Assembly (NCBI GenBank): GCA_017460085.1 | Contig: JAFUBQ010000003.1 | Coordinates: 187,142 to 251,141, forward strand | DNA from: Alphaproteobacteria bacterium | Lineage (GTDB): Bacteria > Pseudomonadota > Alphaproteobacteria > RF32 > CAG-239 | Direction: 5' to 3' | Length of the DNA stretch: 64,000 nt | In this document: positions 1,924 through 38,976 of the stretch, piece after piece | How the letters are laid out: each line of letters begins with the position of its first letter | Position numbering within the stretch: position 1 is the stretch's first letter | Notes under the pieces: generated by a model | What the model saw: the letters and a program-made list of their open reading frames with translations, nothing else | What the model was told of the DNA's origin: nothing | Databases searched by the model: none | Position numbers and translations under genes: made by a program

Positions 1924-2132
1924 GCGAAGTTATTGTAACACATCGTTGTTCAATTTGCAAAAAACTCTATAGCGATACGACCTATGCGCCGTTTTGTTCA
2001 AAGCGTTGCGCCGATGTGGATTTGGCACGTTGGTTTAACGGCAGCTATGCGGTAGCATCTGAGGACTTAGATGAACTGGAAACAGAGGAATTAAGCGAGG
2101 CGCTTGAGCATGCACAGCAATCAGAGCAATAA
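1920..2132 (+). CDS. yacG: DNA gyrase inhibitor YacG (zinc-ribbon)
   Basis: 70 aa with CSICKK...CSKRC, i.e. two CxxC pairs. Overlaps the rng stop by 4 nt; the maf-rng-yacG order is conserved. Confidence 0.7.
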   Translation: MSEVIVTHRCSICKKLYSDTTYAPFCSKRCADVDLARWFNGSYAVASEDLDELETEELSEALEHAQQSEQ

Positions 2133-3237
2133 TCCTGTGGAAGTTTTAACCGATGGAACAGCACTAAAGGTGTTGTTGCAAGGTGATATTGTAGGTTATA
2201 GCAGCGATGATGTGCTTAAAAAAATTAATAACATAAGTTCGGAGATTAAAAAAGTTGTTTTTGTACCAGATGACTTGCAAAATTGGGATTCGTCACTGAT
2301 TTTGTTGGTTTATAACACTGTGCGAATTGGAAAGGCAAAAAATGTTGACGTGCAAATAAATAAATTGCCGAAAAATTTACAAGAGTTGGTAAATATGGCC
2401 TTTGCGGTGGATAGAAAACCTGAAAAAGGCGGTAAAACCATGCTGAGTTTTTTGGAGCGAATCGGGCGGAAGATTATAGGAGAATTTAATATAATCGGTG
2501 ATGTTATAGGTTATATTGGTGAAGTGTTCGTCGGATTACTTCGCTTTTTAAGTTTTCGTTCTATTATGCGGCGTGTTGATTTTTACGCTGCTTTAGAAGA
2601 TTGCGGACCTAAGGCGCTTGCAATTGTTTCTTTAATTAGCTTTTTAGTTGGGCTAATTTTGGCCTTTGTCGGTGCGGTGCAACTGCAAACATTCGGCGCA
2701 CAAATTTATGTGGCAAGCCTTGTTACAATTGGTATGTGTCGGATTATGGGGGCAATTATGGTGGGCATTATTATGGCTGGCCGCACCGGTTCGGCATATG
2801 CGGCAACCATTGGCACCATGCAGGTGAACGAGGAACTTGATGCATTGCAAACAATGGGTTTGTCGCGGGTAGATTTTTTGGTGCTACCGCGCTTGTTGGC
2901 GATGATTTTGGCAATGCCTATTTTGACGATGTTGGCTGATATTATGGGAATGATAGGTGGTGCATTTATTGGTGTTTTTTTAATGAATTTACCTTATCAG
3001 GAATATTGGAAATATGCTTTTAATGCTTTTACATTGAACAATTTTTTAGTTGGAGTTTTTCACGGTTTTTGCTTTGGATTTATTATTGCCTTATGCGGTT
3101 GCTATAGTGGTTTAACCTGCGGACGCAATGCCGACAGTGTTGGTGCAGCGACAACGCGTTCCGTAGTTAATGCCATTGTCTTGATGATTGTTGTTACGGG
3201 TATTATTACCGTTATTTGTCAGGAGATTGGCATATGA
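2104..3237 (+). CDS. mlaE: MlaE-family ABC permease with an N-terminal STAS (MlaB-like) domain fused
   Basis: C-terminal 260 aa is the MlaE/Ttg2B permease core with multiple TM segments. The N-terminal 110 aa (GDIVGYSSDDV...VVFVPDD) looks like a STAS/anti-sigma-antagonist domain. True start may be a few codons downstream. Confidence 0.8.
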   Translation: MSMHSNQSNNPVEVLTDGTALKVLLQGDIVGYSSDDVLKKINNISSEIKKVVFVPDDLQNWDSSLILLVYNTVRIGKAKNVDVQINKLPKNLQELVNMAFAVDRKPEKGGKTMLSFLERIGRKIIGEFNIIGDVIGYIGEVFVGLLRFLSFRSIMRRVDFYAALEDCGPKALAIVSLISFLVGLILAFVGAVQLQTFGAQIYVASLVTIGMCRIMGAIMVGIIMAGRTGSAYAATIGTMQVNEELDALQTMGLSRVDFLVLPRLLAMILAMPILTMLADIMGMIGGAFIGVFLMNLPYQEYWKYAFNAFTLNNFLVGVFHGFCFGFIIALCGCYSGLTCGRNADSVGAATTRSVVNAIVLMIVVTGIITVICQEIGI

Positions 3238-3989
3238 AAGAGCAAGTTATCATTAAGGCGGAAAATTTGTCGGTGGGTTATGGTGATTATGTGTTGTTGC
3301 ACGATGCCGACTATGAAGTGAATAAAGGTGACGTTTTTATTATTATGGGCGGAAGCGGTTGCGGCAAAAGCAGTATGTTGCGCGTTTTAACCGGTCTGTT
3401 GCCGCCGCTTAAAGGAAGCGTGGATATTGACGGGGTCAATATAGTGACGGCTTCTGCCGAAAAAATGCAGCAAATACGCGAAAAATCGGGGATTTTGTAT
3501 CAAAGCGGGGCATTGTTCAGCTCTATGACATTGGCAGAAAACATTATGCTTCCGTTACAGCAATATTCTGATTATTCGCCGCAAACCATGCGTGAGTTAG
3601 CATCATTAAAACTGGCATTGGTAGGTTTGAAAGGATTTGATGATTTTTATCCTTCGGAAATTTCCGGCGGTATGAAAAAAAGAGCCGGTTTGGCGCGGGC
3701 CTTGGCGTTAGACCCTGATATTGTGTATTTTGATGAGCCTTCTGCCGGTTTAGACCCTGTTAGTTCGCATAATTTAGATGAGCTGATTTTGGAAATTAAC
3801 CGCAGTTTAGGGACAACGATTGTGGTGGTTACGCACGAGTTGAGCTCTATTTTTACCATTGGCAACAATTCTATTTTTTTAGATGCTGAAACCAAAACAA
3901 TTTTAGCGCGCGGAAATCCAAAGGAATTATTAAAAAATCCGCCGAATGAAAAAGTATATGAGTTTTTAACACGAGGAGAAAAAAAGTAA
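3234..3989 (+). CDS. mlaF: MlaF-family ABC transporter ATP-binding protein
   Basis: Walker A GGSGCGKSS, signature LSGGMKKRAGLARAL, Walker B IVYFDEP. ATGA overlap with mlaE. Confidence 0.85.
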   Translation: MKEQVIIKAENLSVGYGDYVLLHDADYEVNKGDVFIIMGGSGCGKSSMLRVLTGLLPPLKGSVDIDGVNIVTASAEKMQQIREKSGILYQSGALFSSMTLAENIMLPLQQYSDYSPQTMRELASLKLALVGLKGFDDFYPSEISGGMKKRAGLARALALDPDIVYFDEPSAGLDPVSSHNLDELILEINRSLGTTIVVVTHELSSIFTIGNNSIFLDAETKTILARGNPKELLKNPPNEKVYEFLTRGEKK

Positions 3990-3990
3990 G

Positions 3991-4767
3991 ATGCAGCAGA
4001 AAACAACATATAAGATGGTCGGTTTGTTTGTAGTTGTCGGTTTATTGGCTTTTGCCGGCATTATTTTGAAATATGCTGGAGGCCAATTTACAACTGATAA
4101 AAATGATATGGTGGTAATGTATTTTGAAGAATCTATACGCGGATTGAGCGTTGGCTCGTCGGTAGTGTTCAAGGGGGTTGAAGTTGGTAAAGTGGCCGAT
4201 ATAAGTTTATTGGCGAATTTTAAAGAAGGCACATTTAAAACACCGGTTTGGGTATTATTTAATATGGAAGATAATATAGATGCAATTGACCGCGCCGAGT
4301 TAGATAATAAGCAAATGCTGGATAACTTAATTGCCAAGGGTTTGCGGGCGCGGCTTATTTCAGCCAATTATTTAACCGGTCAATTAATGATTGAATTGGT
4401 GATGGATGCAAAAGCACCGGCCGTGCTGCGCGGAACCGGAAGATATTGGGAAATTCCGACTGAACTTTCCTCATTTGCTATGTTATCGCAAGATTTGGAA
4501 GAAGTGCCGCTGCGAGAAATTCTTTCACGCTTTGGCAACATTATTCAAGATTTGGAAGAAAATTTGCCGCAAATTATGGAAAATACAACGCAAATTACGC
4601 AAAAGCTGGATAAGGCACTTGACAAGAACACTGGCGAGGCTTCAAAGTCTATGAAGAGCTTTAATGCAGCAATGGAAGAAGTTAGCAAGGCAAGTCGGTC
4701 TATTAATAATTTAACCGATTATTTAGAGCGGCATCCGGAAGCTTTGCTTAGGGGAAAGGAGAAATAA
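3991..4767 (+). CDS. mlaD: MCE-domain protein (MlaD-like periplasmic substrate-binding component)
   Basis: N-terminal TM, an MCE domain, and a C-terminal helical extension. Lies in the operon with mlaE/mlaF. Confidence 0.8.
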   Translation: MQQKTTYKMVGLFVVVGLLAFAGIILKYAGGQFTTDKNDMVVMYFEESIRGLSVGSSVVFKGVEVGKVADISLLANFKEGTFKTPVWVLFNMEDNIDAIDRAELDNKQMLDNLIAKGLRARLISANYLTGQLMIELVMDAKAPAVLRGTGRYWEIPTELSSFAMLSQDLEEVPLREILSRFGNIIQDLEENLPQIMENTTQITQKLDKALDKNTGEASKSMKSFNAAMEEVSKASRSINNLTDYLERHPEALLRGKEK

Positions 4768-4768
4768 A

Positions 4769-5335
4769 ATGAAAAAATGGATTATCGGACTTTTTTTAGT
4801 TTTATGTGCTTGCAGTTGGCGCACGCCAAATTCGACTTTTTATATGATGAGCAGTGAAAATTTGGAGCCGATGTCGAATCGGAAAATCAGTGTGGCGGTG
4901 GCAAGAGTTAAAGTGCCTGATTTGTTGGACCGACCGCAGATGGTGATTTATGAACCGAACAGCGATGTGGTAAAAATTGAAGAATTTAGCCGCTGGGGAG
5001 AAGTTTTTCCTGATGTAATACAAGCTACGGTTACCAATGATTTGATGGCGTTTTTACCGAATGCATTTGTGAAACGCACATATTTTGATAGTGGCAATAT
5101 GAACTACAGTGTTAATATTGAAATTAATAAAATGGCGGCATATTTAGACGATAAGGTTGTTTTGAGTGCGTGGTGGAACATTACTAATTCAGGTGGCAGA
5201 GTTTTGCGGCGCGGGCAAGAGAGTTTTGAAACAAAAGTTAAGGGCAATTCTTTGACAGATTTGGTTGAAGCGCAAACACAGGCAATTCATTTACTTTCAA
5301 AAGCTATTGCTAAACAGTTAATTAGCGGAACTTAA
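4769..5335 (+). CDS. ABC-transport auxiliary lipoprotein (PqiC/DUF330-like)
   Basis: Signal peptide with a lipobox Cys (LVLCAC). Placed right after the MCE gene, which is typical of PF03886 partners. Confidence 0.65.
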   Translation: MKKWIIGLFLVLCACSWRTPNSTFYMMSSENLEPMSNRKISVAVARVKVPDLLDRPQMVIYEPNSDVVKIEEFSRWGEVFPDVIQATVTNDLMAFLPNAFVKRTYFDSGNMNYSVNIEINKMAAYLDDKVVLSAWWNITNSGGRVLRRGQESFETKVKGNSLTDLVEAQTQAIHLLSKAIAKQLISGT

Positions 5336-5379
5336 AAATATATGGCTCGTTTTTTTTACTTGACATTGTTTTATATATA

Positions 5380-5394
5380 GAACTAAACTAGAAC
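5380..5394 (+). promoter_or_regulatory. LexA operator (alphaproteobacterial SOS box, GAAC-N7-GAAC direct repeat)
   Basis: GAACTAAACTAGAAC lies 18 nt upstream of the lexA ATG, with a TTGACA hexamer at 5360-5365 upstream of it. Confidence 0.6.
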
Positions 5395-5411
5395 AAATGT
5401 AAGGAGAAAAA

Positions 5412-6068
5412 ATGTTAACGCAAAAACAGTATAATTTATTGATGTTCATCAATAAGGTAAATCGTGAAACAGGTAGTTGCCCTTCTTTTGATGAAATGAA
5501 AGACGCGGTTGGATTGAAGTCAAAATCTGGAATTCACGCCTTAATCAGTTCTTTGGAAGAACGTAATTTTATTCGACGTATTCCACATAAAGCACGGGCA
5601 TTGGAAGTGGTGAGAATGCCACGCTTTAAACCGCATGCAATTATGGAAGAAGAAAAAAAACGCGAAGAAGCTTTGCAAAATGCTAATGCAATAATACCTC
5701 TTTATGGCAAAATTGCTGCCGGCACGCCAATTGAAGCTATTGCTGATGGAACTGAGACTGTTTCTGTTCCCTTTAATATGGTTGCTCTTGGGCAATATTA
5801 TGCGCTCAAAATTGAGGGTGATTCAATGATAGAAGCCGGAATTATGGATGGAGATACGGCAATTATTCGTAAGCAGGAACAAGCAGATAATGGGAAAATA
5901 GTGGTTGCTTTGGTTGATAATAACGAGGCAACGCTGAAAATTCTGAAAAAAGAAAATTCTTTGGTTCATTTAATTCCGTGTAATAAAGACTATAAGGTGA
6001 GAACATTGCCGTCAGAACGCGTGAAAATTCAGGGTATTTTATCCGGAATAATTCGGCAATATAAATGA
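5412..6068 (+). CDS. lexA: LexA repressor
   Basis: 218 aa with an N-terminal winged HTH and a C-terminal S24 peptidase domain (Ala-Gly cleavage region, Ser/Lys dyad context GDSM...K). Confidence 0.9.
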   Translation: MLTQKQYNLLMFINKVNRETGSCPSFDEMKDAVGLKSKSGIHALISSLEERNFIRRIPHKARALEVVRMPRFKPHAIMEEEKKREEALQNANAIIPLYGKIAAGTPIEAIADGTETVSVPFNMVALGQYYALKIEGDSMIEAGIMDGDTAIIRKQEQADNGKIVVALVDNNEATLKILKKENSLVHLIPCNKDYKVRTLPSERVKIQGILSGIIRQYK

Positions 6069-6084
6069 TATACGGGAGTTTTTT

Positions 6085-6777
6085 ATGCCGTATAAAAATT
6101 TTGAAAGCCTAAAAGGATTTTTACTTTTATATTCAATTTTAGCTATGTTCATCGGGATTGGGATTTATTTGTATTTTAAAATCTCGCAACGCAATAATAT
6201 AAACCAAACAATAGAAGATATTATGCTTATGGTGCAAAATATTTCCGAAGACGAAGCAAAGAACAGGTATAGTGGTTTTAATACTGATGTTGCTGTTTTA
6301 GGCGAATATTTTCCTTTTGACTTGCAAATTGAAGAAAAGCAAGAGCATTATTCGGTAAAAAATCGTTTTGGCGGAGAAATTCAAATATATGAATCGTTTG
6401 CCGATAAAGAGGCGCGAAATAAATATTTTCAATTTTCTCAGGACACACACACTTATGAAAAAATGTCGTCCGGCGGTGGAGCATATATTATATTGTTAAC
6501 TGAATTAAGCGGGCGCGTGTGCCGTGTTTTAGCGCAAGTTGATTGGAAAAACAAAATGCCGAATTTTTTGGGTTTGGAAGCGGGTTACACAACACCGCGA
6601 AATCAGAACAACGGTTTATATAATCTACATTATTATGTTTTGAAAGATAATTTGGGAGAAAAGTTTTTAACCGATGATGCCGGTAAACAATCTTATGATG
6701 CGCTTACAACGGAAGACGCAAGAAAGGCGTGTGGCTGTATGTGGCGTAGTTGTTCGTTGGCTTTGAAATTTTTGTAG
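6085..6777 (+). CDS. Hypothetical single-pass membrane protein co-transcribed with lexA
   Basis: 230 aa. N-terminal TM helix (FLLLYSILAMFIGIGIYLYF). GGGAG RBS 9 nt upstream of the ATG. 16-nt gap to lexA with no terminator between. Confidence 0.5.
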   Translation: MPYKNFESLKGFLLLYSILAMFIGIGIYLYFKISQRNNINQTIEDIMLMVQNISEDEAKNRYSGFNTDVAVLGEYFPFDLQIEEKQEHYSVKNRFGGEIQIYESFADKEARNKYFQFSQDTHTYEKMSSGGGAYIILLTELSGRVCRVLAQVDWKNKMPNFLGLEAGYTTPRNQNNGLYNLHYYVLKDNLGEKFLTDDAGKQSYDALTTEDARKACGCMWRSCSLALKFL

Positions 6778-6867
6778 AAGTGTAAAAAAAACTGATTTAT
6801 TTATAACTTTTTAACACTTAATGCATACAATAACAGTGATTTAATTGTCAATAGTGGAGAAATAAAA

Positions 6868-7275
6868 ATGGCAAAAGAAAATAAGACAGAAACAAATACA
6901 CCTAAATTTGGTATTGTTAACGTACAAGCCGTTGTGGCTCAAACACCTGGAGTTGTTGATTTGCGTAATGAACAAGAAGCAAAACGCAGAGAAGTGCAAG
7001 AATGGATTAATGCACGTAATGCAGAAATTGCTGCTGCTGAAGAAGCCAAAAAAGCAGAATTAACAAAAAAATATCAAGGTGAACTGAATGAACGTCAGCA
7101 GAAAATGCAAGCAGAATATGCGCAAAAAGTGCAGGCTCTTGATGCTAATTTAAATAAGTTGATTACTGAAATAGCAGAAAAAGAACATTTAAATTATGTT
7201 TTCAATGTTGGCTCGTTAGTGTTTGGCGGAATGGATATTACGTCACAAGTTCTTGAAAAATTAAATGCAAAATAA
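6868..7275 (+). CDS. OmpH/Skp-family chaperone-like protein, copy 1
   Basis: 135 aa with an Skp-like heptad/coiled-coil core and a C-terminal Y[VF]F..G.VVFGG.DIT motif. No obvious signal peptide. Confidence 0.65.
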   Translation: MAKENKTETNTPKFGIVNVQAVVAQTPGVVDLRNEQEAKRREVQEWINARNAEIAAAEEAKKAELTKKYQGELNERQQKMQAEYAQKVQALDANLNKLITEIAEKEHLNYVFNVGSLVFGGMDITSQVLEKLNAK

Positions 7276-7287
7276 GGAATTAAAAAT

Positions 7288-7755
7288 ATGATAAAAAAAG
7301 TAAGTAAAAAAAATGCGGTAAAAGAAAATAAAGCAACTATTGTTGAGAGTAGTAACACTACAGCCCATGTTTTGGGTGATGCTAAAATTGCCGTTGTAGA
7401 TGTGCAATTTTTGGTTAATCAAACGCCGTCTGTTTTAGCTTTGCGCGCAGAACAACAGCAAAATGCATCGATTATTCAAAATTGGATTAATGGTGTTAAT
7501 AGCCAGCTTAGCCAAATTGCAGACCAAAACACTCGTAATGCAACGGCACAACAATATCAAATTGAGCTGAATAAGCGTCAACAAATGCTGCAAAGTCAAT
7601 ATGCTATGAAAATTCAGGCAATTGATGCTGAGCTTTCAAAATTGATTTCTGATGTGGCAAATGAGAAAAAATTAGATTATGTTTTTGCTAAAGGTATGGT
7701 TGTTTTTGGCGGTACCGATATTACCGAAGATGTAGCAAAACTTTTGAAAAAGTAG
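7288..7755 (+). CDS. OmpH/Skp-family chaperone-like protein, copy 2 (tandem paralogue)
   Basis: 155 aa with the same C-terminal motif, DYVFAKGMVVFGGTDIT. 12-nt gap from copy 1. Confidence 0.65.
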   Translation: MIKKVSKKNAVKENKATIVESSNTTAHVLGDAKIAVVDVQFLVNQTPSVLALRAEQQQNASIIQNWINGVNSQLSQIADQNTRNATAQQYQIELNKRQQMLQSQYAMKIQAIDAELSKLISDVANEKKLDYVFAKGMVVFGGTDITEDVAKLLKK

Positions 7756-7950: not shown

Positions 7951-8772
7951 TTATTCTTTAGACTGCTCAATAGTTGTTGAGTTTGCCATTTTCTTTTCTC
8001 GCATAAAACGCCATACGGTTAAAGGAACGGTAAACAAATAGCATAGTGTGAATAGTCCTAATGTGAGCCATGGTTTAGTCAGCAAGCAGCTGATAAATAA
8101 AACAAACAACACCATTAGAGGTACAAACCAATCGGCGCTGATTTTAGTTTTCTTTAACGACAGTGTCGGAATGCGGCTAATCATTAAAAATGCCACAATC
8201 AGCATAAGTGCACTGCAGATATAGCGATTGCGCAGCAGATATGCCATTTCTTCGTTATCAAACCAAATTAATATCGGCATCATGGCAATTGCTGCAGCCA
8301 TTGGAGCAGGCACGCCTACAAAATAGTGTGACCAATATTCCGGCACGCTTTCATCTTCCAGCATAGTGTTGAAACGAGCCAAGCGCATAGCCATTGCCGA
8401 AGCAAACATAAGGGAAAAAATCCATCCCCAGTGTGTTAAATCGTGTAAACACCATTGATACATTAAAATTGCCGGAGCTACGCCAAAACTAACAAAATCA
8501 GAAAGCGAATCCAGTTCTGCCCCAAATTTTGATGAAGCCTTCAGCTTGCGAGCAACTCGGCCATCAAGTCCGTCGAATATACAGGCTAAAAAAATGCAGC
8601 CTATTGCATACATCCAATTGCCGATAATTGCAAAACGAATCGTTGTCACACCTGCGCAAAGAGCCATTAACGTGACAATATTCGGTGCCATTTTACGGAA
8701 CGGAACTTCTTTGAGTTTACCCATTGCTTTTTTCTTTATTATATGCCTTGTCGGCATTGTTTTTCTTACCAT
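7951..8772 (-). CDS. pssA: CDP-diacylglycerol--serine O-phosphatidyltransferase
   Basis: CDP-alcohol phosphatidyltransferase motif DGLDGRVAR...G..LDSLSD and multiple TM segments. TAATG overlap with psd. Confidence 0.8.
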   Translation of the reverse strand: MVRKTMPTRHIIKKKAMGKLKEVPFRKMAPNIVTLMALCAGVTTIRFAIIGNWMYAIGCIFLACIFDGLDGRVARKLKASSKFGAELDSLSDFVSFGVAPAILMYQWCLHDLTHWGWIFSLMFASAMAMRLARFNTMLEDESVPEYWSHYFVGVPAPMAAAIAMMPILIWFDNEEMAYLLRNRYICSALMLIVAFLMISRIPTLSLKKTKISADWFVPLMVLFVLFISCLLTKPWLTLGLFTLCYLFTVPLTVWRFMREKKMANSTTIEQSKE

Positions 8773-9476
8773 TATCTGATTTCTCCTTCAATTCGGGGAG
8801 CGTCGGACCTTATGTTGGCAACAATAGTTTCTCCGGCAATCATCTGCTGCCCGATGCAAACCTGCGGTTCAATCTTATCAGGTAAAAATAAATCAACATA
8901 TCCGCCATATCTGATAAAACCGAAACGTTGCCCAGTGGTATATTCATCACTGATTTTAACTTTATTAATAACACGCTTATTGCAAATAAGAGCTGTTTGC
9001 TGTATTGCAAGCTCATAATTAGCATTGCGCCATGAAAACATTGCTTTTTCATTATGCAAATCATTTTTATGCCAGTTATCGGAAAAATTTTTACCTTCAG
9101 TGTAGAAGGTTTTATGAATTTTACCTTTCAAAGGGATTCGATTTATATGCGAATCGAACAAACTGGAATATATGCACACGCGCGTAAAATTTCTATTGCC
9201 AAGACCAAGCGCATCAGGGCCTTTTTCTCGGCTTATGGAAACCACCAAGCCATCTGCCGGTGCCACAATGGCATCAGAGAGTATGGGGGTTATGCGTTGC
9301 GGGTCACGAAAACAATAAAATGTTAAAATTGTTACCAAAAACGAAAGAAAACCAAGTGGTATCCACAACATTGCTAAAACGATGGAAACTAGCGCCAAAG
9401 CACTTATAAATTTCCATCCGTCCTCATTAATATTGGGAAACAGATAGCGGCGCAGTGAAATATCAACAGCTTTCAT
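8772..9476 (-). CDS. psd: Phosphatidylserine decarboxylase, short-type proenzyme
   Basis: 234 aa. N-terminal membrane anchor and a Psd-like core. Operon with pssA. Confidence 0.75.
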   Translation of the reverse strand: MKAVDISLRRYLFPNINEDGWKFISALALVSIVLAMLWIPLGFLSFLVTILTFYCFRDPQRITPILSDAIVAPADGLVVSISREKGPDALGLGNRNFTRVCIYSSLFDSHINRIPLKGKIHKTFYTEGKNFSDNWHKNDLHNEKAMFSWRNANYELAIQQTALICNKRVINKVKISDEYTTGQRFGFIRYGGYVDLFLPDKIEPQVCIGQQMIAGETIVANIRSDAPRIEGEIR

Positions 9477-32650: not shown

Positions 32651-32689
32651 CTTTTGCAGTTGAACATTTTTTGAAAAGGATTTTTTAAT

Positions 32690-33850
32690 ATGACAAATAA
32701 ACCGAGTGAACCGATTATGCTGTTTGATTGCGCAACCACACAAAAGAAAATCGGACAAGAAAAATTTTTAGATGCTTTTAAAAATATATTAAATCACGGT
32801 GCTTATTGCCAAGGGCCGGAAACTAAAGAGTTGGATGTAAAACTTGCCGAATATGCCGGAACTAAATATTGTTCCACTTGCGGTTCAGGTACTGATGCCT
32901 TAACTTTGGCTTTAATGGCTTGGGATGTTAAGGCAGGCGATGCTGTTTTTGTTTCTTCGTTTACCTTTGTAGCTTCGGCTGAAGCACCGGTTTTGTTAGG
33001 TGCAACTCCGATTTTTGTTGATTCGGATCCGAATACATACAATATGGATGTTAATGATTTGAAACGTGCCATTGCAGCTGTTAAAGCTGAGGGAAAATTG
33101 AATTTGAAAGCCGTTATTGCCGTAGATATTTTCGGTTCTCCGTGCGATTATGATGAAATTATCAAAATTGCACATGAAAACGGTATGAAAGTTCTTTCCG
33201 ATTCTTGTCAGAGTTTCGGCTCAATATATCATGGTCATAATGCCGGTTCTATTGCTGATATGAGCGCAACTTCATTTTATCCTACAAAACCATTAGGCGG
33301 ATATGGTGATGGCGGCGCCGTGTTCACCAATTCTGAAGCAGAAAACGCGTTAGTACAATCTTGTCGTGTTCATGGAATGAGTCCGGAAGACCACTACGAT
33401 AATGTTCGTTTAGGTATGACCGGTCGTATGAATTCGTTCCAAGGAGCAGTTTTGCTGTTGAAGCTTACTCAATTTAAGCAAGAATTAGAAAATCGTTATA
33501 AAGTGGCTAAGCGCTATGATAATGAACTCAGCTCATATTTCGGCAAACAAAAAGTTTTAGATAATTGCCGTTCGGCTTATGCGCTTTATACCATTACCTG
33601 CGAAGATCGTGATGAGCTGATGACCTATCTGAAGGCAAACGGAATTCCTTGCGGTGCATATTATCCGCGTCCGGTAAATACACAAACAGCTTATGCAAAA
33701 TGGAATACACGTTCATTGCCAGTTTGTGAAAAACTTTCTAAAACAGTATGCAGCTTGCCGATGACACCGTATTTGACCGACGAACAAATGAGCTACATTA
33801 TTGAAAAAATGAATGAATTTGCCGCTACTAAAATGAATAAGGCCGCATAA
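32690..33850 (+). CDS. DegT/DnrJ/EryC1/StrS-family PLP-dependent sugar aminotransferase
   Basis: 386 aa with the family fold and a PLP-lysine region. It stands alone, with no partner sugar-modifying genes nearby. Confidence 0.8.
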   Translation: MTNKPSEPIMLFDCATTQKKIGQEKFLDAFKNILNHGAYCQGPETKELDVKLAEYAGTKYCSTCGSGTDALTLALMAWDVKAGDAVFVSSFTFVASAEAPVLLGATPIFVDSDPNTYNMDVNDLKRAIAAVKAEGKLNLKAVIAVDIFGSPCDYDEIIKIAHENGMKVLSDSCQSFGSIYHGHNAGSIADMSATSFYPTKPLGGYGDGGAVFTNSEAENALVQSCRVHGMSPEDHYDNVRLGMTGRMNSFQGAVLLLKLTQFKQELENRYKVAKRYDNELSSYFGKQKVLDNCRSAYALYTITCEDRDELMTYLKANGIPCGAYYPRPVNTQTAYAKWNTRSLPVCEKLSKTVCSLPMTPYLTDEQMSYIIEKMNEFAATKMNKAA

Positions 33851-37821: not shown

Positions 37822-38976
37822 ATGCAAGAGGAAAATACTTTAGTGATGAATATGGGAACAAATGCTGAAAAAAAATCGGCATGGCGATATTTTGTGGAAT
37901 GTATCAGCAAAAAATATTGCTGCTTTAAGGGAAGGGCAAATCGCAAGGAATTTTGGGGATTTGTTTTTTATTGTTTTTTGTTTACGCTGATTGTATCGGC
38001 GGCGCTTAATTTGCTATTAAAAGACGATACAATCATCGGCTATGCTGAAAATGTATGGTCTTTTGCTTTATTGTTGCCTTATTTAGGTGTTATTGTTCGG
38101 CGTTTGCATGATGTCGGATTTTCCGGTAAATGGTTTTTAGGATTTTTGCTTCTTGTATTTATGGTTGCCATTTTTACCGCAGCATTTTCCGTAATGAAAA
38201 AAATGGGGTCGGAAGTTTCTAGCAATGCAAATTTTGTTAAAACAGCAAGTTTTGGTGTTTTGAGTATTGTGATGCTTGGCATGTTTATATTCTTGCTGGT
38301 ATGTATGTTTTTACCGGGGCAAAAAAAGGTCAACAAATATGGAGCAATATCAGAGAGCGGAGAAAAACATTGGTTTTGGTATATGCTTGCATACATACTT
38401 TTTGTTTGGGGTTTTGTTTTTAGTGTAGGTTTTATCAGCGGGTATTCAAAAGCTACGTTTCGCATACGCTTAAATGGTATAATTGACCAAACTGCATTTT
38501 TGGTTGACGGAGCAAGAACTTTATATAGCGGAAAAACAAGCTATGCGGGAATTAATATGGAAAAACTGGCTGCTGCCGGAGGTATAAGTGAGCAACTTGT
38601 GCAAAATTCTGAAGGAAATTTTGCTCTGATTAATCCTTATGGCGGTTTGACCGAAATTATGGTTGGTAATAAAGCTGAAAATGGAGATGATAAAGCAATT
38701 TTAGTTAAGTTTACCGAAGTTCCAGCAGCAAGTTGTATGGCTTTGAGCAAATTCTCTTGGGGTAATTTGCAAACTGGATTTATAGCTTTGCTGGCAGATG
38801 ACGGAACGCCAATGTATGATAAATACATTGATTTTGCTACGATAAACAGTTGTCAAAGTGTTGCTCAATTCAAATATATGTTGGTTTGCGGCGACGATGC
38901 TGATTTTAGGGCAAAAATAGATGAAAATGCAGCTTGTCAGGGAGATAAAAACACCATAATTCTCAAATTTTTCTAA
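37822..38976 (+). CDS. DUF805 (YhaH-like) inner-membrane domain fused to a TM-anchored Cys-containing C-terminal domain, possibly pilin-like
   Basis: N-terminal half shows GRANRKEFWGF...RRLHDVGFSGKW...KVNKYG DUF805 signatures. It is followed by an extra TM and a 180-aa soluble domain with two Cys pairs. Confidence 0.5.
   Translation: MQEENTLVMNMGTNAEKKSAWRYFVECISKKYCCFKGRANRKEFWGFVFYCFLFTLIVSAALNLLLKDDTIIGYAENVWSFALLLPYLGVIVRRLHDVGFSGKWFLGFLLLVFMVAIFTAAFSVMKKMGSEVSSNANFVKTASFGVLSIVMLGMFIFLLVCMFLPGQKKVNKYGAISESGEKHWFWYMLAYILFVWGFVFSVGFISGYSKATFRIRLNGIIDQTAFLVDGARTLYSGKTSYAGINMEKLAAAGGISEQLVQNSEGNFALINPYGGLTEIMVGNKAENGDDKAILVKFTEVPAASCMALSKFSWGNLQTGFIALLADDGTPMYDKYIDFATINSCQSVAQFKYMLVCGDDADFRAKIDENAACQGDKNTIILKFF

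What the first reader, a model, noticed from the sequence alone, without database searches (positions are those of the whole stretch)
5380..6777. Membrane protein co-transcribed with lexA behind a GAAC-N7-GAAC SOS box: candidate SOS-induced division inhibitor
The only candidate LexA operator noted by eye in this window precedes lexA. A 230-aa single-TM protein follows 16 nt after the lexA stop, with its own RBS and no intervening terminator.

In many bacteria the SOS cell-division inhibitor is a small membrane protein encoded next to lexA (YneA, ChiZ, SidA-type). This gene has that architecture (N-terminal TM plus an extracytoplasmic domain) but no recognisable family motif.
Basis: inference. 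Interest (0 to 1): 0.5.

Follow-up and report, generated by a model that had tools for sequence, protein, structure and literature searches.

The report
Pilin-derived membrane protein in lexA operon
In an uncultured rumen or gut alphaproteobacterium, the DNA-damage repressor gene lexA is followed in the same operon by a membrane-anchored protein that is a degenerate type IVb pilin which can no longer be built into a pilus. This gene pair recurs across related genomes, so the protein is a credible but functionally untested damage-induced envelope factor.

Summary
A GAAC-N7-GAAC direct repeat (5380-5394) lies inside the lexA promoter. lexA (5412-6068) is a genuine LexA. A 230-aa gene, X (6085-6777), follows after 16 nt with its own RBS and no terminator-like site.

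One box per 64 kb is what chance gives. However, the -35 hexamer and the box are the only invariant blocks in seven diverged lexA promoters.

X sits directly downstream of lexA in six different flanking contexts, at X identities down to 31%. It is unlinked, and lacks a box, in two lineages.

X is a diverged type IVb pilin paralogue:
- hhalign probability against the clade's real pilins is 99.4%.
- The AlphaFold model has pLDDT 87.

X has lost the invariant Gly(-1) and Glu5 and the conserved assembly helix. It is therefore most likely an uncleaved inner-membrane protein with a disulfide-bonded periplasmic head.

SOS co-regulation is well supported. The proposed role as a division inhibitor rests on analogy only (about 0.3). 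This is a new variant of a known kind. Interest 0.5.

The parts
5360..5365 (+). -35 hexamer TTGACA of the lexA promoter
   Evidence: Promoter scan found TTGACA-18-TAAACT, 10 of 12 matches. CTTGAC is invariant in seven aligned lexA upstream regions.
5380..5394 (+). LexA operator GAACTAAACTAGAAC, the alphaproteobacterial direct-repeat type (GTTC-N7-GTTC on the other strand). Its spacer (5384-5389, TAAACT) is the predicted -10 hexamer.
   Evidence: Only exact match in the window. It overlaps the -10. AGAACTAA..TAGAACAAA is invariant across window, L001, L004, L006, L010, L011 and L015. The motif type is listed for Caulobacter in PMC9578287 Table 1.
5401..5406 (+). Ribosome-binding site AAGGAG of lexA
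   Evidence: Read from the sequence.
5412..6068 (+). lexA, 218 aa. Carries the Ala103-Gly104 cleavage site, Ser138 (GDSM) and Lys176.
   Evidence: TIGR00498 E 1.3e-47, 162 bits against a cutoff of 111. PF01726 and PF00717. Catalytic and cleavage residues read from the translation.
6069..6084 (+). 16-nt lexA-X spacer with the RBS GGGAG (6074-6078). It has no terminator and no room for a promoter.
6085..6777 (+). Gene X, 230 aa (NCBI MBQ9034717.1, annotated 'hypothetical protein'). It is an uncleaved type IVb pilin-fold membrane protein.
6118..6177 (+). N-terminal hydrophobic helix of X (residues ~12-31). It is homologous to pilin alpha1-N but lacks Gly(-1) and Glu5 and is poorly conserved. Predicted to be a membrane anchor.
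   Evidence: Alignments. Column analysis: X family has 0 of 20 members with G(-1) or E5, while the pilins are invariant at both; helix conservation is 0.48 against 0.99.
6178..6774 (+). Alpha1-C helix plus globular pilin-like head (residues 32-230). Predicted periplasmic. Has four invariant Cys (C146, C216, C218, C223) and an X-specific two-helix insert at about residues 105-130.
   Evidence: Invariant columns. Secondary structure of the model. Gap in the pilin profile opposite X residues 105-130.

Best explanation
lexA and X form a two-gene operon driven by one sigma-70-type promoter. The -10 hexamer of that promoter lies inside a GAAC-N7-GAAC LexA operator.

Proposed sequence of events:
1. 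In undamaged cells LexA sits on the -10 and throttles both genes.
2. After DNA damage, RecA-stimulated self-cleavage of LexA (Ala103-Gly104; Ser138/Lys176) frees the promoter, and X rises together with lexA.
3. X is a paralogue of the type IVb major pilins of this clade that has lost the prepilin-peptidase site (Gly-1), the assembly residue Glu5 and the near-invariant alpha1-N sequence.
4. X is therefore not cleaved and not polymerised. It stays as an N-in/C-out inner-membrane protein with a periplasmic pilin-like head, probably held by two disulfides (C146-C216 as in pilins, and C218-C223).
5. The head, including the X-specific helical insert, is proposed to bind a periplasm-exposed partner.

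My preferred target is the late divisome (the FtsW/FtsI/FtsN level), which would delay septation during repair in the way other lexA-linked single-TM proteins do.

Status of each step:
- Shown from sequence and comparison: gene order, the operator and promoter footprint, the conserved lexA-X linkage, pilin ancestry and fold, and loss of the processing and assembly motifs.
- Inferred: LexA binding, damage induction, topology, disulfides, and above all the target.

Rough likelihoods:
- LexA-controlled co-transcription: about 0.85.
- Uncleaved pilin-fold membrane protein: about 0.85.
- Division inhibition as the function: about 0.3.
For: - Operator and promoter: the box overlaps the -10. The only invariant blocks in seven diverged lexA promoters are the -35 hexamer and the box. 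In L015 the promoter is TTGACA-18-TAAAAT, 11 of 12 matches, with the -10 inside the box.
- Operon: the gap is 16 nt with an RBS and no terminator-like site. In relatives the gaps are 17, 22, 21, 69, 53, 18 and 66 nt, and no terminator-like site falls in any gap scanned.
- Linkage: lexA sits immediately upstream of X on the same strand in six flank contexts. These are pqiC...ompH (window, L001, L004, L006), secA-pilin-like (L008), ppdK(-)...ompH (L010), TPR...PQ-loop (L011), tandem X copies (L013) and ppdK...methyltransferase(-) (L015), at X identity of 31-52%.
- X is a real gene: dN/dS 0.11-0.23.
- Loss of pilin function: no G(-1) or E5 in any of 20 members, against invariance in 26 pilins. 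Helix conservation is 0.48 against 0.99.
- Precedent for lexA-adjacent single-TM SOS division inhibitors: PMC6851548 and PMC9578287.
Against: - There is no experimental datum, and the organism is known only from metagenome assemblies.
- The number of boxes in the window is what chance gives.
- One lexA-X lineage (L008) has no recognisable GAAC-N7-GAAC upstream of lexA, even with one mismatch allowed.
- X orthologues in L007 (43% identity) and L017 are not next to lexA and have no box within about 200 nt. SOS control of X is therefore not universal.
- X has no similarity to any known division inhibitor and is much larger.
- Co-transcription with lexA implies appreciable basal expression, which is awkward for a potent division inhibitor.
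- In L010 the 69-nt gap contains a TTGACA-like hexamer, so X could have a promoter of its own there.
Confidence: 0.45

Rival explanations
1. X is an SOS-induced modulator or decoy of the type IV pilus system. As an uncleavable pilin paralogue it would dock on the pilus assembly platform or on the membrane pilin pool. During DNA damage it would block or remodel pilus assembly, for example to limit phage adsorption, DNA uptake or adhesion.
For: X is clearly derived from the clade's own major pilins and keeps the whole fold. In L008 a second uncleaved pilin-like gene lies just upstream of lexA. LexA directly controls pilin-like operons in Synechocystis (PMC4759255).
Against: The alpha1-N helix mediates pilin-pilin and pilin-machinery contacts and is 99% conserved in the real pilins. 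It is the least pilin-like part of X, and within the X family it is conserved no better than the head (0.48). No pilus machinery gene was found among the roughly 40 window ORFs scanned against Pfam; the remaining long ORFs were not annotated. None lies within 10 kb of a real pilin gene of the clade either. The same window carries another exapted pilin domain fused to DUF805, which suggests the domain is used here as a general periplasmic module.
Confidence: 0.15
2. X is a housekeeping envelope protein whose place behind lexA reflects convenient co-expression or simple inheritance. It would have no dedicated role in the DNA-damage response.
For: Two lineages keep X away from lexA and without a LexA box. 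In the window, X lies among envelope genes: mlaEFD and a pqiC-like gene upstream, two ompH genes, then pssA and psd downstream. lexA operons are expressed at a basal level.
Against: The lexA-X adjacency survives at least five rearrangements of both flanks, while X itself diverges to 31% identity. That pattern is hard to explain without selection for co-regulation. The envelope neighbourhood is not conserved with X, whereas lexA is.
Confidence: 0.2
3. X is still a genuine pilus subunit, a minor or tip pilin processed at a non-canonical site.
For: It has the pilin fold, an N-terminal hydrophobic helix, and, in the window species only, a Gly at position 11 just before the hydrophobic stretch (KG|FLLLY).
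Against: That Gly is absent from the 51%-identical orthologue P0003 and from most family members. None has Glu5, and the helix is not conserved.
Confidence: 0.05

Closest known systems
Type IVb major pilins (Salmonella Typhi PilS, ETEC CofA/CFA-III, Vibrio cholerae TcpA, EPEC bundlin BfpA; Pfam PF08805 PilS_N and PF05307 Bundlin)
   Different: X has no Gly(-1), no Glu5 and no conserved alpha1-N. It has an extra two-helix insert and an extra Cys pair. The window protein does not reach either Pfam model. The gene sits in the lexA operon and not in a pilus locus.
lexA-adjacent single-TM SOS cell-division inhibitors of Gram-positive bacteria (YneA, ChiZ/Rv2719c, DivS, SosA)
   Same: They are encoded next to lexA, presumably under LexA control, and have one N-terminal TM segment with the C-terminal part outside the cytoplasm (PMC6851548; PMC9578287).
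   Different: Those genes are divergently transcribed from lexA, whereas X is downstream in the same operon. They are small (SosA is 77 aa), and several carry a LysM domain. X is 230 aa with a pilin fold, shows no LysM match in Pfam, and comes from a Gram-negative.
SidA of Caulobacter crescentus (alphaproteobacterial SOS division inhibitor acting on FtsW)
   Same: Same class of bacteria and the same operator type (GTTC-N7-GTTC). It is an inner-membrane SOS effector (PMC9578287).
   Different: SidA is a small inner-membrane protein (PMC9578287; about 29 aa, with no periplasmic domain and not lexA-linked, from my own knowledge). No homology to X is expected; none was tested.
lexA operons with a co-transcribed effector (Pseudomonas aeruginosa lexA-sulA, Escherichia coli lexA-dinF; from my own knowledge, not checked here)
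   Same: An effector gene lies directly downstream of lexA under the autoregulated lexA promoter.
   Different: SulA is a cytoplasmic FtsZ binder and DinF is a MATE transporter. X matches neither in Pfam or NCBIfam.
LexA-regulated pilin-like operons pilA7-8 and pilA9-11 of Synechocystis PCC 6803
   Same: LexA directly binds promoters of pilin-like genes (PMC4759255).
   Different: That LexA does not control an SOS response. The Synechocystis genes are described as pilA homologues (PMC4759255); whether they keep the processing motif was not checked here. They are not in the lexA operon.

Membership tests
LexA repressor (TIGR00498) | Whole-protein score above the curated equivalog cutoff; winged-helix LexA DNA-binding domain plus S24 peptidase domain | tested here: met
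   162 bits against a cutoff of 110.95. PF01726 at 1.1e-11 and PF00717 at 4.8e-30.
LexA repressor (TIGR00498) | Ala-Gly self-cleavage site and Ser/Lys catalytic dyad at the usual spacing | tested here: met
   Read from the translation: A103-G104, S138 (GDSM) and K176. The Ala-to-Ser spacing is 35 residues, as in E. coli A84/S119 (E. coli positions from my own knowledge).
Alphaproteobacterial LexA operator | Direct repeat GTTC-N7-GTTC (GAAC-N7-GAAC on the other strand) in the promoter of an SOS gene | tested here: met
   Exact match at 5380-5394, overlapping the -10. Conserved in seven lexA promoters. Motif as in PMC9578287 Table 1.
Alphaproteobacterial LexA operator | Bound by LexA; transcription induced by DNA damage | not testable with these tools
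   Needs EMSA or footprinting, and expression data.
Type IV pilin (class III signal peptide proteins) | Gly at -1 for prepilin peptidase cleavage | tested here: not met
   In the aligned column, 0 of 20 X-family members have Gly, against 25 of 25 pilins with a residue there. The window species has a Gly11, but the orthologue P0003 has none.
Type IV pilin (class III signal peptide proteins) | Glu at +5 and a conserved hydrophobic alpha1-N | tested here: not met
   0 of 20 have Glu, against 26 of 26 pilins. Majority-residue frequency of the helix is 0.48 against 0.99.
Type IV pilin (class III signal peptide proteins) | Lollipop fold: long N-terminal helix packed on an antiparallel sheet, with a C-terminal disulfide | tested here: met
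Pfam PF08805 PilS_N / PF05307 Bundlin | Score above the gathering threshold | tested here: not met
   The window protein has no hit. Only 4 and 2 of 20 family members give weak hits, best E 0.003 and 0.0065. Homology shows only at profile-profile level.
SulA (cytoplasmic FtsZ inhibitor) | Match to the SulA family model; cytoplasmic protein | tested here: not met
   No Pfam or NCBIfam hit at E up to 1. X has an N-terminal TM helix.
YneA / ChiZ type SOS division inhibitors | Single TM plus an extracytoplasmic LysM domain | tested here: not met
   A single TM is present, but there is no LysM hit and the outside domain has a pilin fold.
YneA / ChiZ / SosA type SOS division inhibitors | Encoded next to lexA and LexA-regulated | tested here: inconclusive
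   Adjacency is met and conserved, but the gene is co-directional and not divergent. Regulation is inferred from the operator only.
YneA / ChiZ / SosA / SidA type SOS division inhibitors | Overproduction blocks septation; binds late divisome proteins | not testable with these tools
   Needs expression and microscopy, and interaction assays.

The most novel reading that the evidence does not exclude
A type IVb pilin has been exapted, by loss of its processing and assembly signals, into a structurally new class of SOS effector. It would be a periplasm-facing, membrane-anchored checkpoint protein, either a division inhibitor or an envelope remodeller. It is hard-wired into the lexA operon of a clade of uncultured gut and rumen Alphaproteobacteria. 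In the same window another pilin head is fused to a DUF805 membrane domain.
Probability: 0.25. Interest if true: 0.7.

Novelty: new variant of a known kind. Interest (0 to 1): 0.5.

Why it matters
SOS-linked division inhibitors are notoriously non-homologous between lineages, and they are usually found by their position next to lexA. Among Alphaproteobacteria, the literature read here describes only the Caulobacter inhibitors SidA and DidA.

A conserved lexA-X operon gives a concrete, testable candidate for a whole clade of uncultured gut and rumen Alphaproteobacteria.

Independently of function, X is a clean example of a pilin that lost Gly(-1), Glu5 and the assembly helix yet stayed under purifying selection. 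This shows that the pilin head can be reused as a general periplasmic module.

If X instead acts on pili, it would link the DNA-damage response to surface-appendage control.

Tried and rejected
- Single-sequence scans of X gave nothing usable. This covers Pfam, NCBIfam, PADLOC and PHROGs. The only Pfam line (Sigma_reg_N, E 0.087) covers the TM segment and was dismissed.
- A first AlphaFold run on 4 close sequences was unusable (pLDDT 46). It was repeated with 48 sequences.
- The word-indexed protein search found only 3 close homologues. The exhaustive search was needed to find the family.
- P0022, P0026 and P0031 from that search are long repeat proteins with many weak stretches. They were rejected as spurious.
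- I looked for LexA boxes upstream of the unlinked X copies (L007, L017), upstream of the pilin-like P0030 (L021), and upstream of lexA in L008. None was found, even with one mismatch allowed.
- I looked for pilus machinery among the roughly 40 window ORFs scanned against Pfam and within 10 kb of a real clade pilin. None was found.
- P0029's contig was too short to show its upstream gene.
- The afdb50 fold library was unavailable.
- A count-based enrichment test of the box is not significant, so the argument rests on position and conservation.
- Literature searches found no paper describing a lexA-pilin-like operon.

Full report
**1. The observation**

- GAACTAAACTAGAAC occupies 5380-5394.
- An ORF of 218 codons runs 5412-6068.
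- After a 16-nt spacer containing GGGAG (6074-6078), a 230-codon ORF (X) runs 6085-6777.

The first ORF is a genuine LexA.
- It matches the TIGR00498 equivalog at 162 bits against a cutoff of 111.
- It matches LexA_DNA_bind and Peptidase_S24.
- The translation shows the Ala103-Gly104 cleavage site, Ser138 and Lys176.

The consensus scan finds no terminator-like site anywhere in 5200-7400. It finds one strong promoter-like site, TTGACA (5360)-18-TAAACT (5384-5389), whose -10 lies in the spacer of the box.

**2. Is the box more than chance?**

By count it is not. There is one exact GAAC-N7-GAAC in 64 kb on both strands, against 0.82 expected, and 57 of 100 shuffles have at least one.

By position and conservation it is.
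- The box lies 18 nt before the lexA ATG and on top of the -10. From the figures, I estimate that a chance hit on the + strand within 60 nt of that ATG has a probability of roughly 4e-4.
- I aligned 100-nt upstream regions of lexA from the window and six related contigs whose flanks have otherwise diverged. The only invariant blocks are CTTGAC and AGAACTAA..TAGAACAAA (raw sequences).
- In several relatives the spacer reads TAAAAT, an even better -10. In L015 the promoter scores 11 of 12.

GTTC-N7-GTTC is the operator type reported for Caulobacter LexA (PMC9578287, Table 1). With one mismatch allowed, only two other intergenic sites exist in the window. One lies 14 nt before the aminotransferase gene at 32690. 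The other is near no gene start.

**3. Is lexA-X a unit?**

X has few relatives. The word-indexed search found three. An exhaustive HMMER search of 1.8 billion representatives found 29 hits, about 20 of them full-length at 29-52% identity. Three long repeat proteins among the hits are spurious.

The window protein is identical to MBQ9034717.1, 'hypothetical protein', from an Alphaproteobacteria MAG. A 51%-identical copy lies in rumen MAG RUG560, labelled 'uncultured Rhodospirillaceae'.

I fetched the genomic context for nine lineages. In seven of them lexA lies immediately upstream of X on the same strand, while the outer neighbours differ. These fall into six flank contexts:

| Locus | Gene order |
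|---|---|
| window, L001, L004, L006 | pqiC-like / lexA-X / ompH-ompH |
| L008 | secA, pilin-like / lexA-X / opposite-strand genes |
| L010 | ppdK(-) / lexA-X / ompH-ompH |
| L011 | TPR / lexA-X / PQ-loop |
| L013 | lexA followed by two tandem X paralogues |
| L015 | ppdK / lexA-X / methyltransferase(-) |

Further points on the unit:
- The lexA-X gaps are 16-69 nt, and none contains a terminator-like site.
- X is under purifying selection, with dN/dS 0.11 against a 91%-identical orthologue and 0.23 against a 51%-identical one. At nonsynonymous sites it evolves about six times faster than lexA.
- There are two exceptions. In L007 (43% identity) X follows an ABC transporter. In L017 it follows a tRNA. 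Neither has a LexA box within about 200 nt, even with one mismatch allowed.
- In L008 the pair is present, but no GAAC-N7-GAAC is recognisable upstream of lexA.

**4. What X is**

Single-sequence scans give nothing, but the weakest significant phmmer hits were pilin-like proteins.
- A profile search with the family reached more than 2,500 proteins carrying PF08805 (PilS_N) and PF05307 (Bundlin). Some of these are named 'type 4 pilus major pilin [Alphaproteobacteria bacterium]'.
- To avoid circularity I built separate alignments of the X family (A3, 20 sequences) and of those real pilins (A4, 26 sequences). hhalign gave 99.4% probability, E 2e-21, over 205 columns from the N-terminal helix to the last strand.
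- An HMM built from the pilins alone hits X at 4e-13 among the window ORFs.
- The X-family profile has bundlin as its best PDB hit.
- With a 48-sequence alignment, AlphaFold gave pLDDT 86.8 and pTM 0.81. The model has a helix 5-57 followed by an alpha-beta head.
- The 13 best Foldseek hits are all type IVb pilins: PilS, CofA and TcpA.

**5. What X is not**

The clade's real pilins have an invariant G|RSMVEMLGVLAIIGVLSVGGIAGYSKAM. Gly(-1) and Glu5 are in every sequence, and the alpha1-N helix is 99% conserved. In the X family no member has Gly or Glu in those columns. The hydrophobic helix is conserved no better (0.48) than the head (0.52).

The window species has a Gly11 before the hydrophobic stretch, but its 51%-identical orthologue does not.

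Four Cys residues are invariant in the X family. C146 and C216 align with the pilin disulfide pair, and C218 and C223 are additional. About 25 residues (105-130) form an X-specific two-helix insert.

The simplest reading is an uncleaved, non-polymerising, N-in/C-out inner-membrane protein with a disulfide-bonded periplasmic head. Topology and disulfides are inferred.

**6. Function**

Three points are well supported:
- X is expressed from the LexA-controlled lexA promoter.
- Selection keeps it there.
- X acts from the membrane or periplasm.

The specific role is not shown. The alphaproteobacterial inhibitor SidA is also a membrane protein acting on FtsW (PMC9578287). I keep this as the favoured specific mechanism, at about 0.3.

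Several points count against it:
- X has no similarity to any known inhibitor.
- X is large.
- Expression from the lexA operon implies a basal level of X.
- Two lineages have X without lexA linkage or a box.

The rivals are as follows.
- A pilus decoy or modulator (0.15). It is attractive because of the ancestry and because Synechocystis LexA binds pilin-like promoters (PMC4759255). It is weakened by the degenerate helix and by the absence of pilus machinery nearby.
- A housekeeping envelope protein with no SOS-specific role (0.2).
- A real minor pilin (0.05).

**7. Novelty and score**

The operator, the autoregulated lexA gene and the idea of a lexA-linked membrane effector are all known kinds. 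New here is a conserved lexA operon whose second gene is a pilin that has lost its pilin-defining signals. The family is annotated only as hypothetical, and I found no description of it in the literature.

I rate it a new variant of a known kind, with interest 0.5. The regulatory half is solid and ordinary. The protein is unexpected. The functional claim is untested, and the hosts are uncultured.

Noticed in passing
window 37822-38976 (+): A 384-aa protein that fuses a DUF805 multi-pass membrane domain (residues 33-175) to a C-terminal PilS/Bundlin type IVb pilin head (residues ~224-384). It has no class III signal peptide. This is a second, independent case in this window of a pilin head anchored by a non-pilin N-terminus.
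   Followed up: partly
L008 3430-4239: A 269-aa PilS/Bundlin-like protein lies directly upstream of lexA. It has a long basic leader and also lacks Gly(-1) and Glu5. In that genome lexA is therefore flanked on both sides by uncleaved pilin-like genes, and its promoter lacks a recognisable GAAC-N7-GAAC box.
   Followed up: partly
L013 709-2161: lexA is followed by two tandem X paralogues of 220 aa and 233 aa. The 88-nt gap between them contains a TTGACG-type -35-like hexamer.
   Followed up: partly
window 6868-7275 and 7288-7755 (+): Two tandem OmpH/Skp-like chaperone paralogues (135 and 155 aa) lie directly downstream of X. The same pair follows X in L001, L004 and L010 but not in other lineages. 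Whether they belong to the same transcript as lexA-X was not examined. No terminator-like site lies between X and the first of them.
   Followed up: no
window 2104-5335 (+) and 7951-9476 (-): The window's lexA-X pair sits in an envelope-lipid neighbourhood: mlaE, mlaF, mlaD and a pqiC-like lipoprotein upstream, and pssA-like and psd genes downstream on the opposite strand. No terminator-like site separates the pqiC-like gene from the lexA promoter, so read-through from the mla operon is possible.
   Followed up: no
window 32662-32676 (+): A one-mismatch box, GAACATTTTTTGAAA, lies 14 nt upstream of the DegT/DnrJ-type aminotransferase gene at 32690-33850. It is probably chance.
   Followed up: no
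L018 10001-10690: A canonical major pilin of this clade (P0083) stands alone among hypothetical genes. No type IV pilus assembly gene lies within 10 kb. The clade holds thousands of such pilin genes, and where their machinery is encoded was not determined.
   Followed up: no
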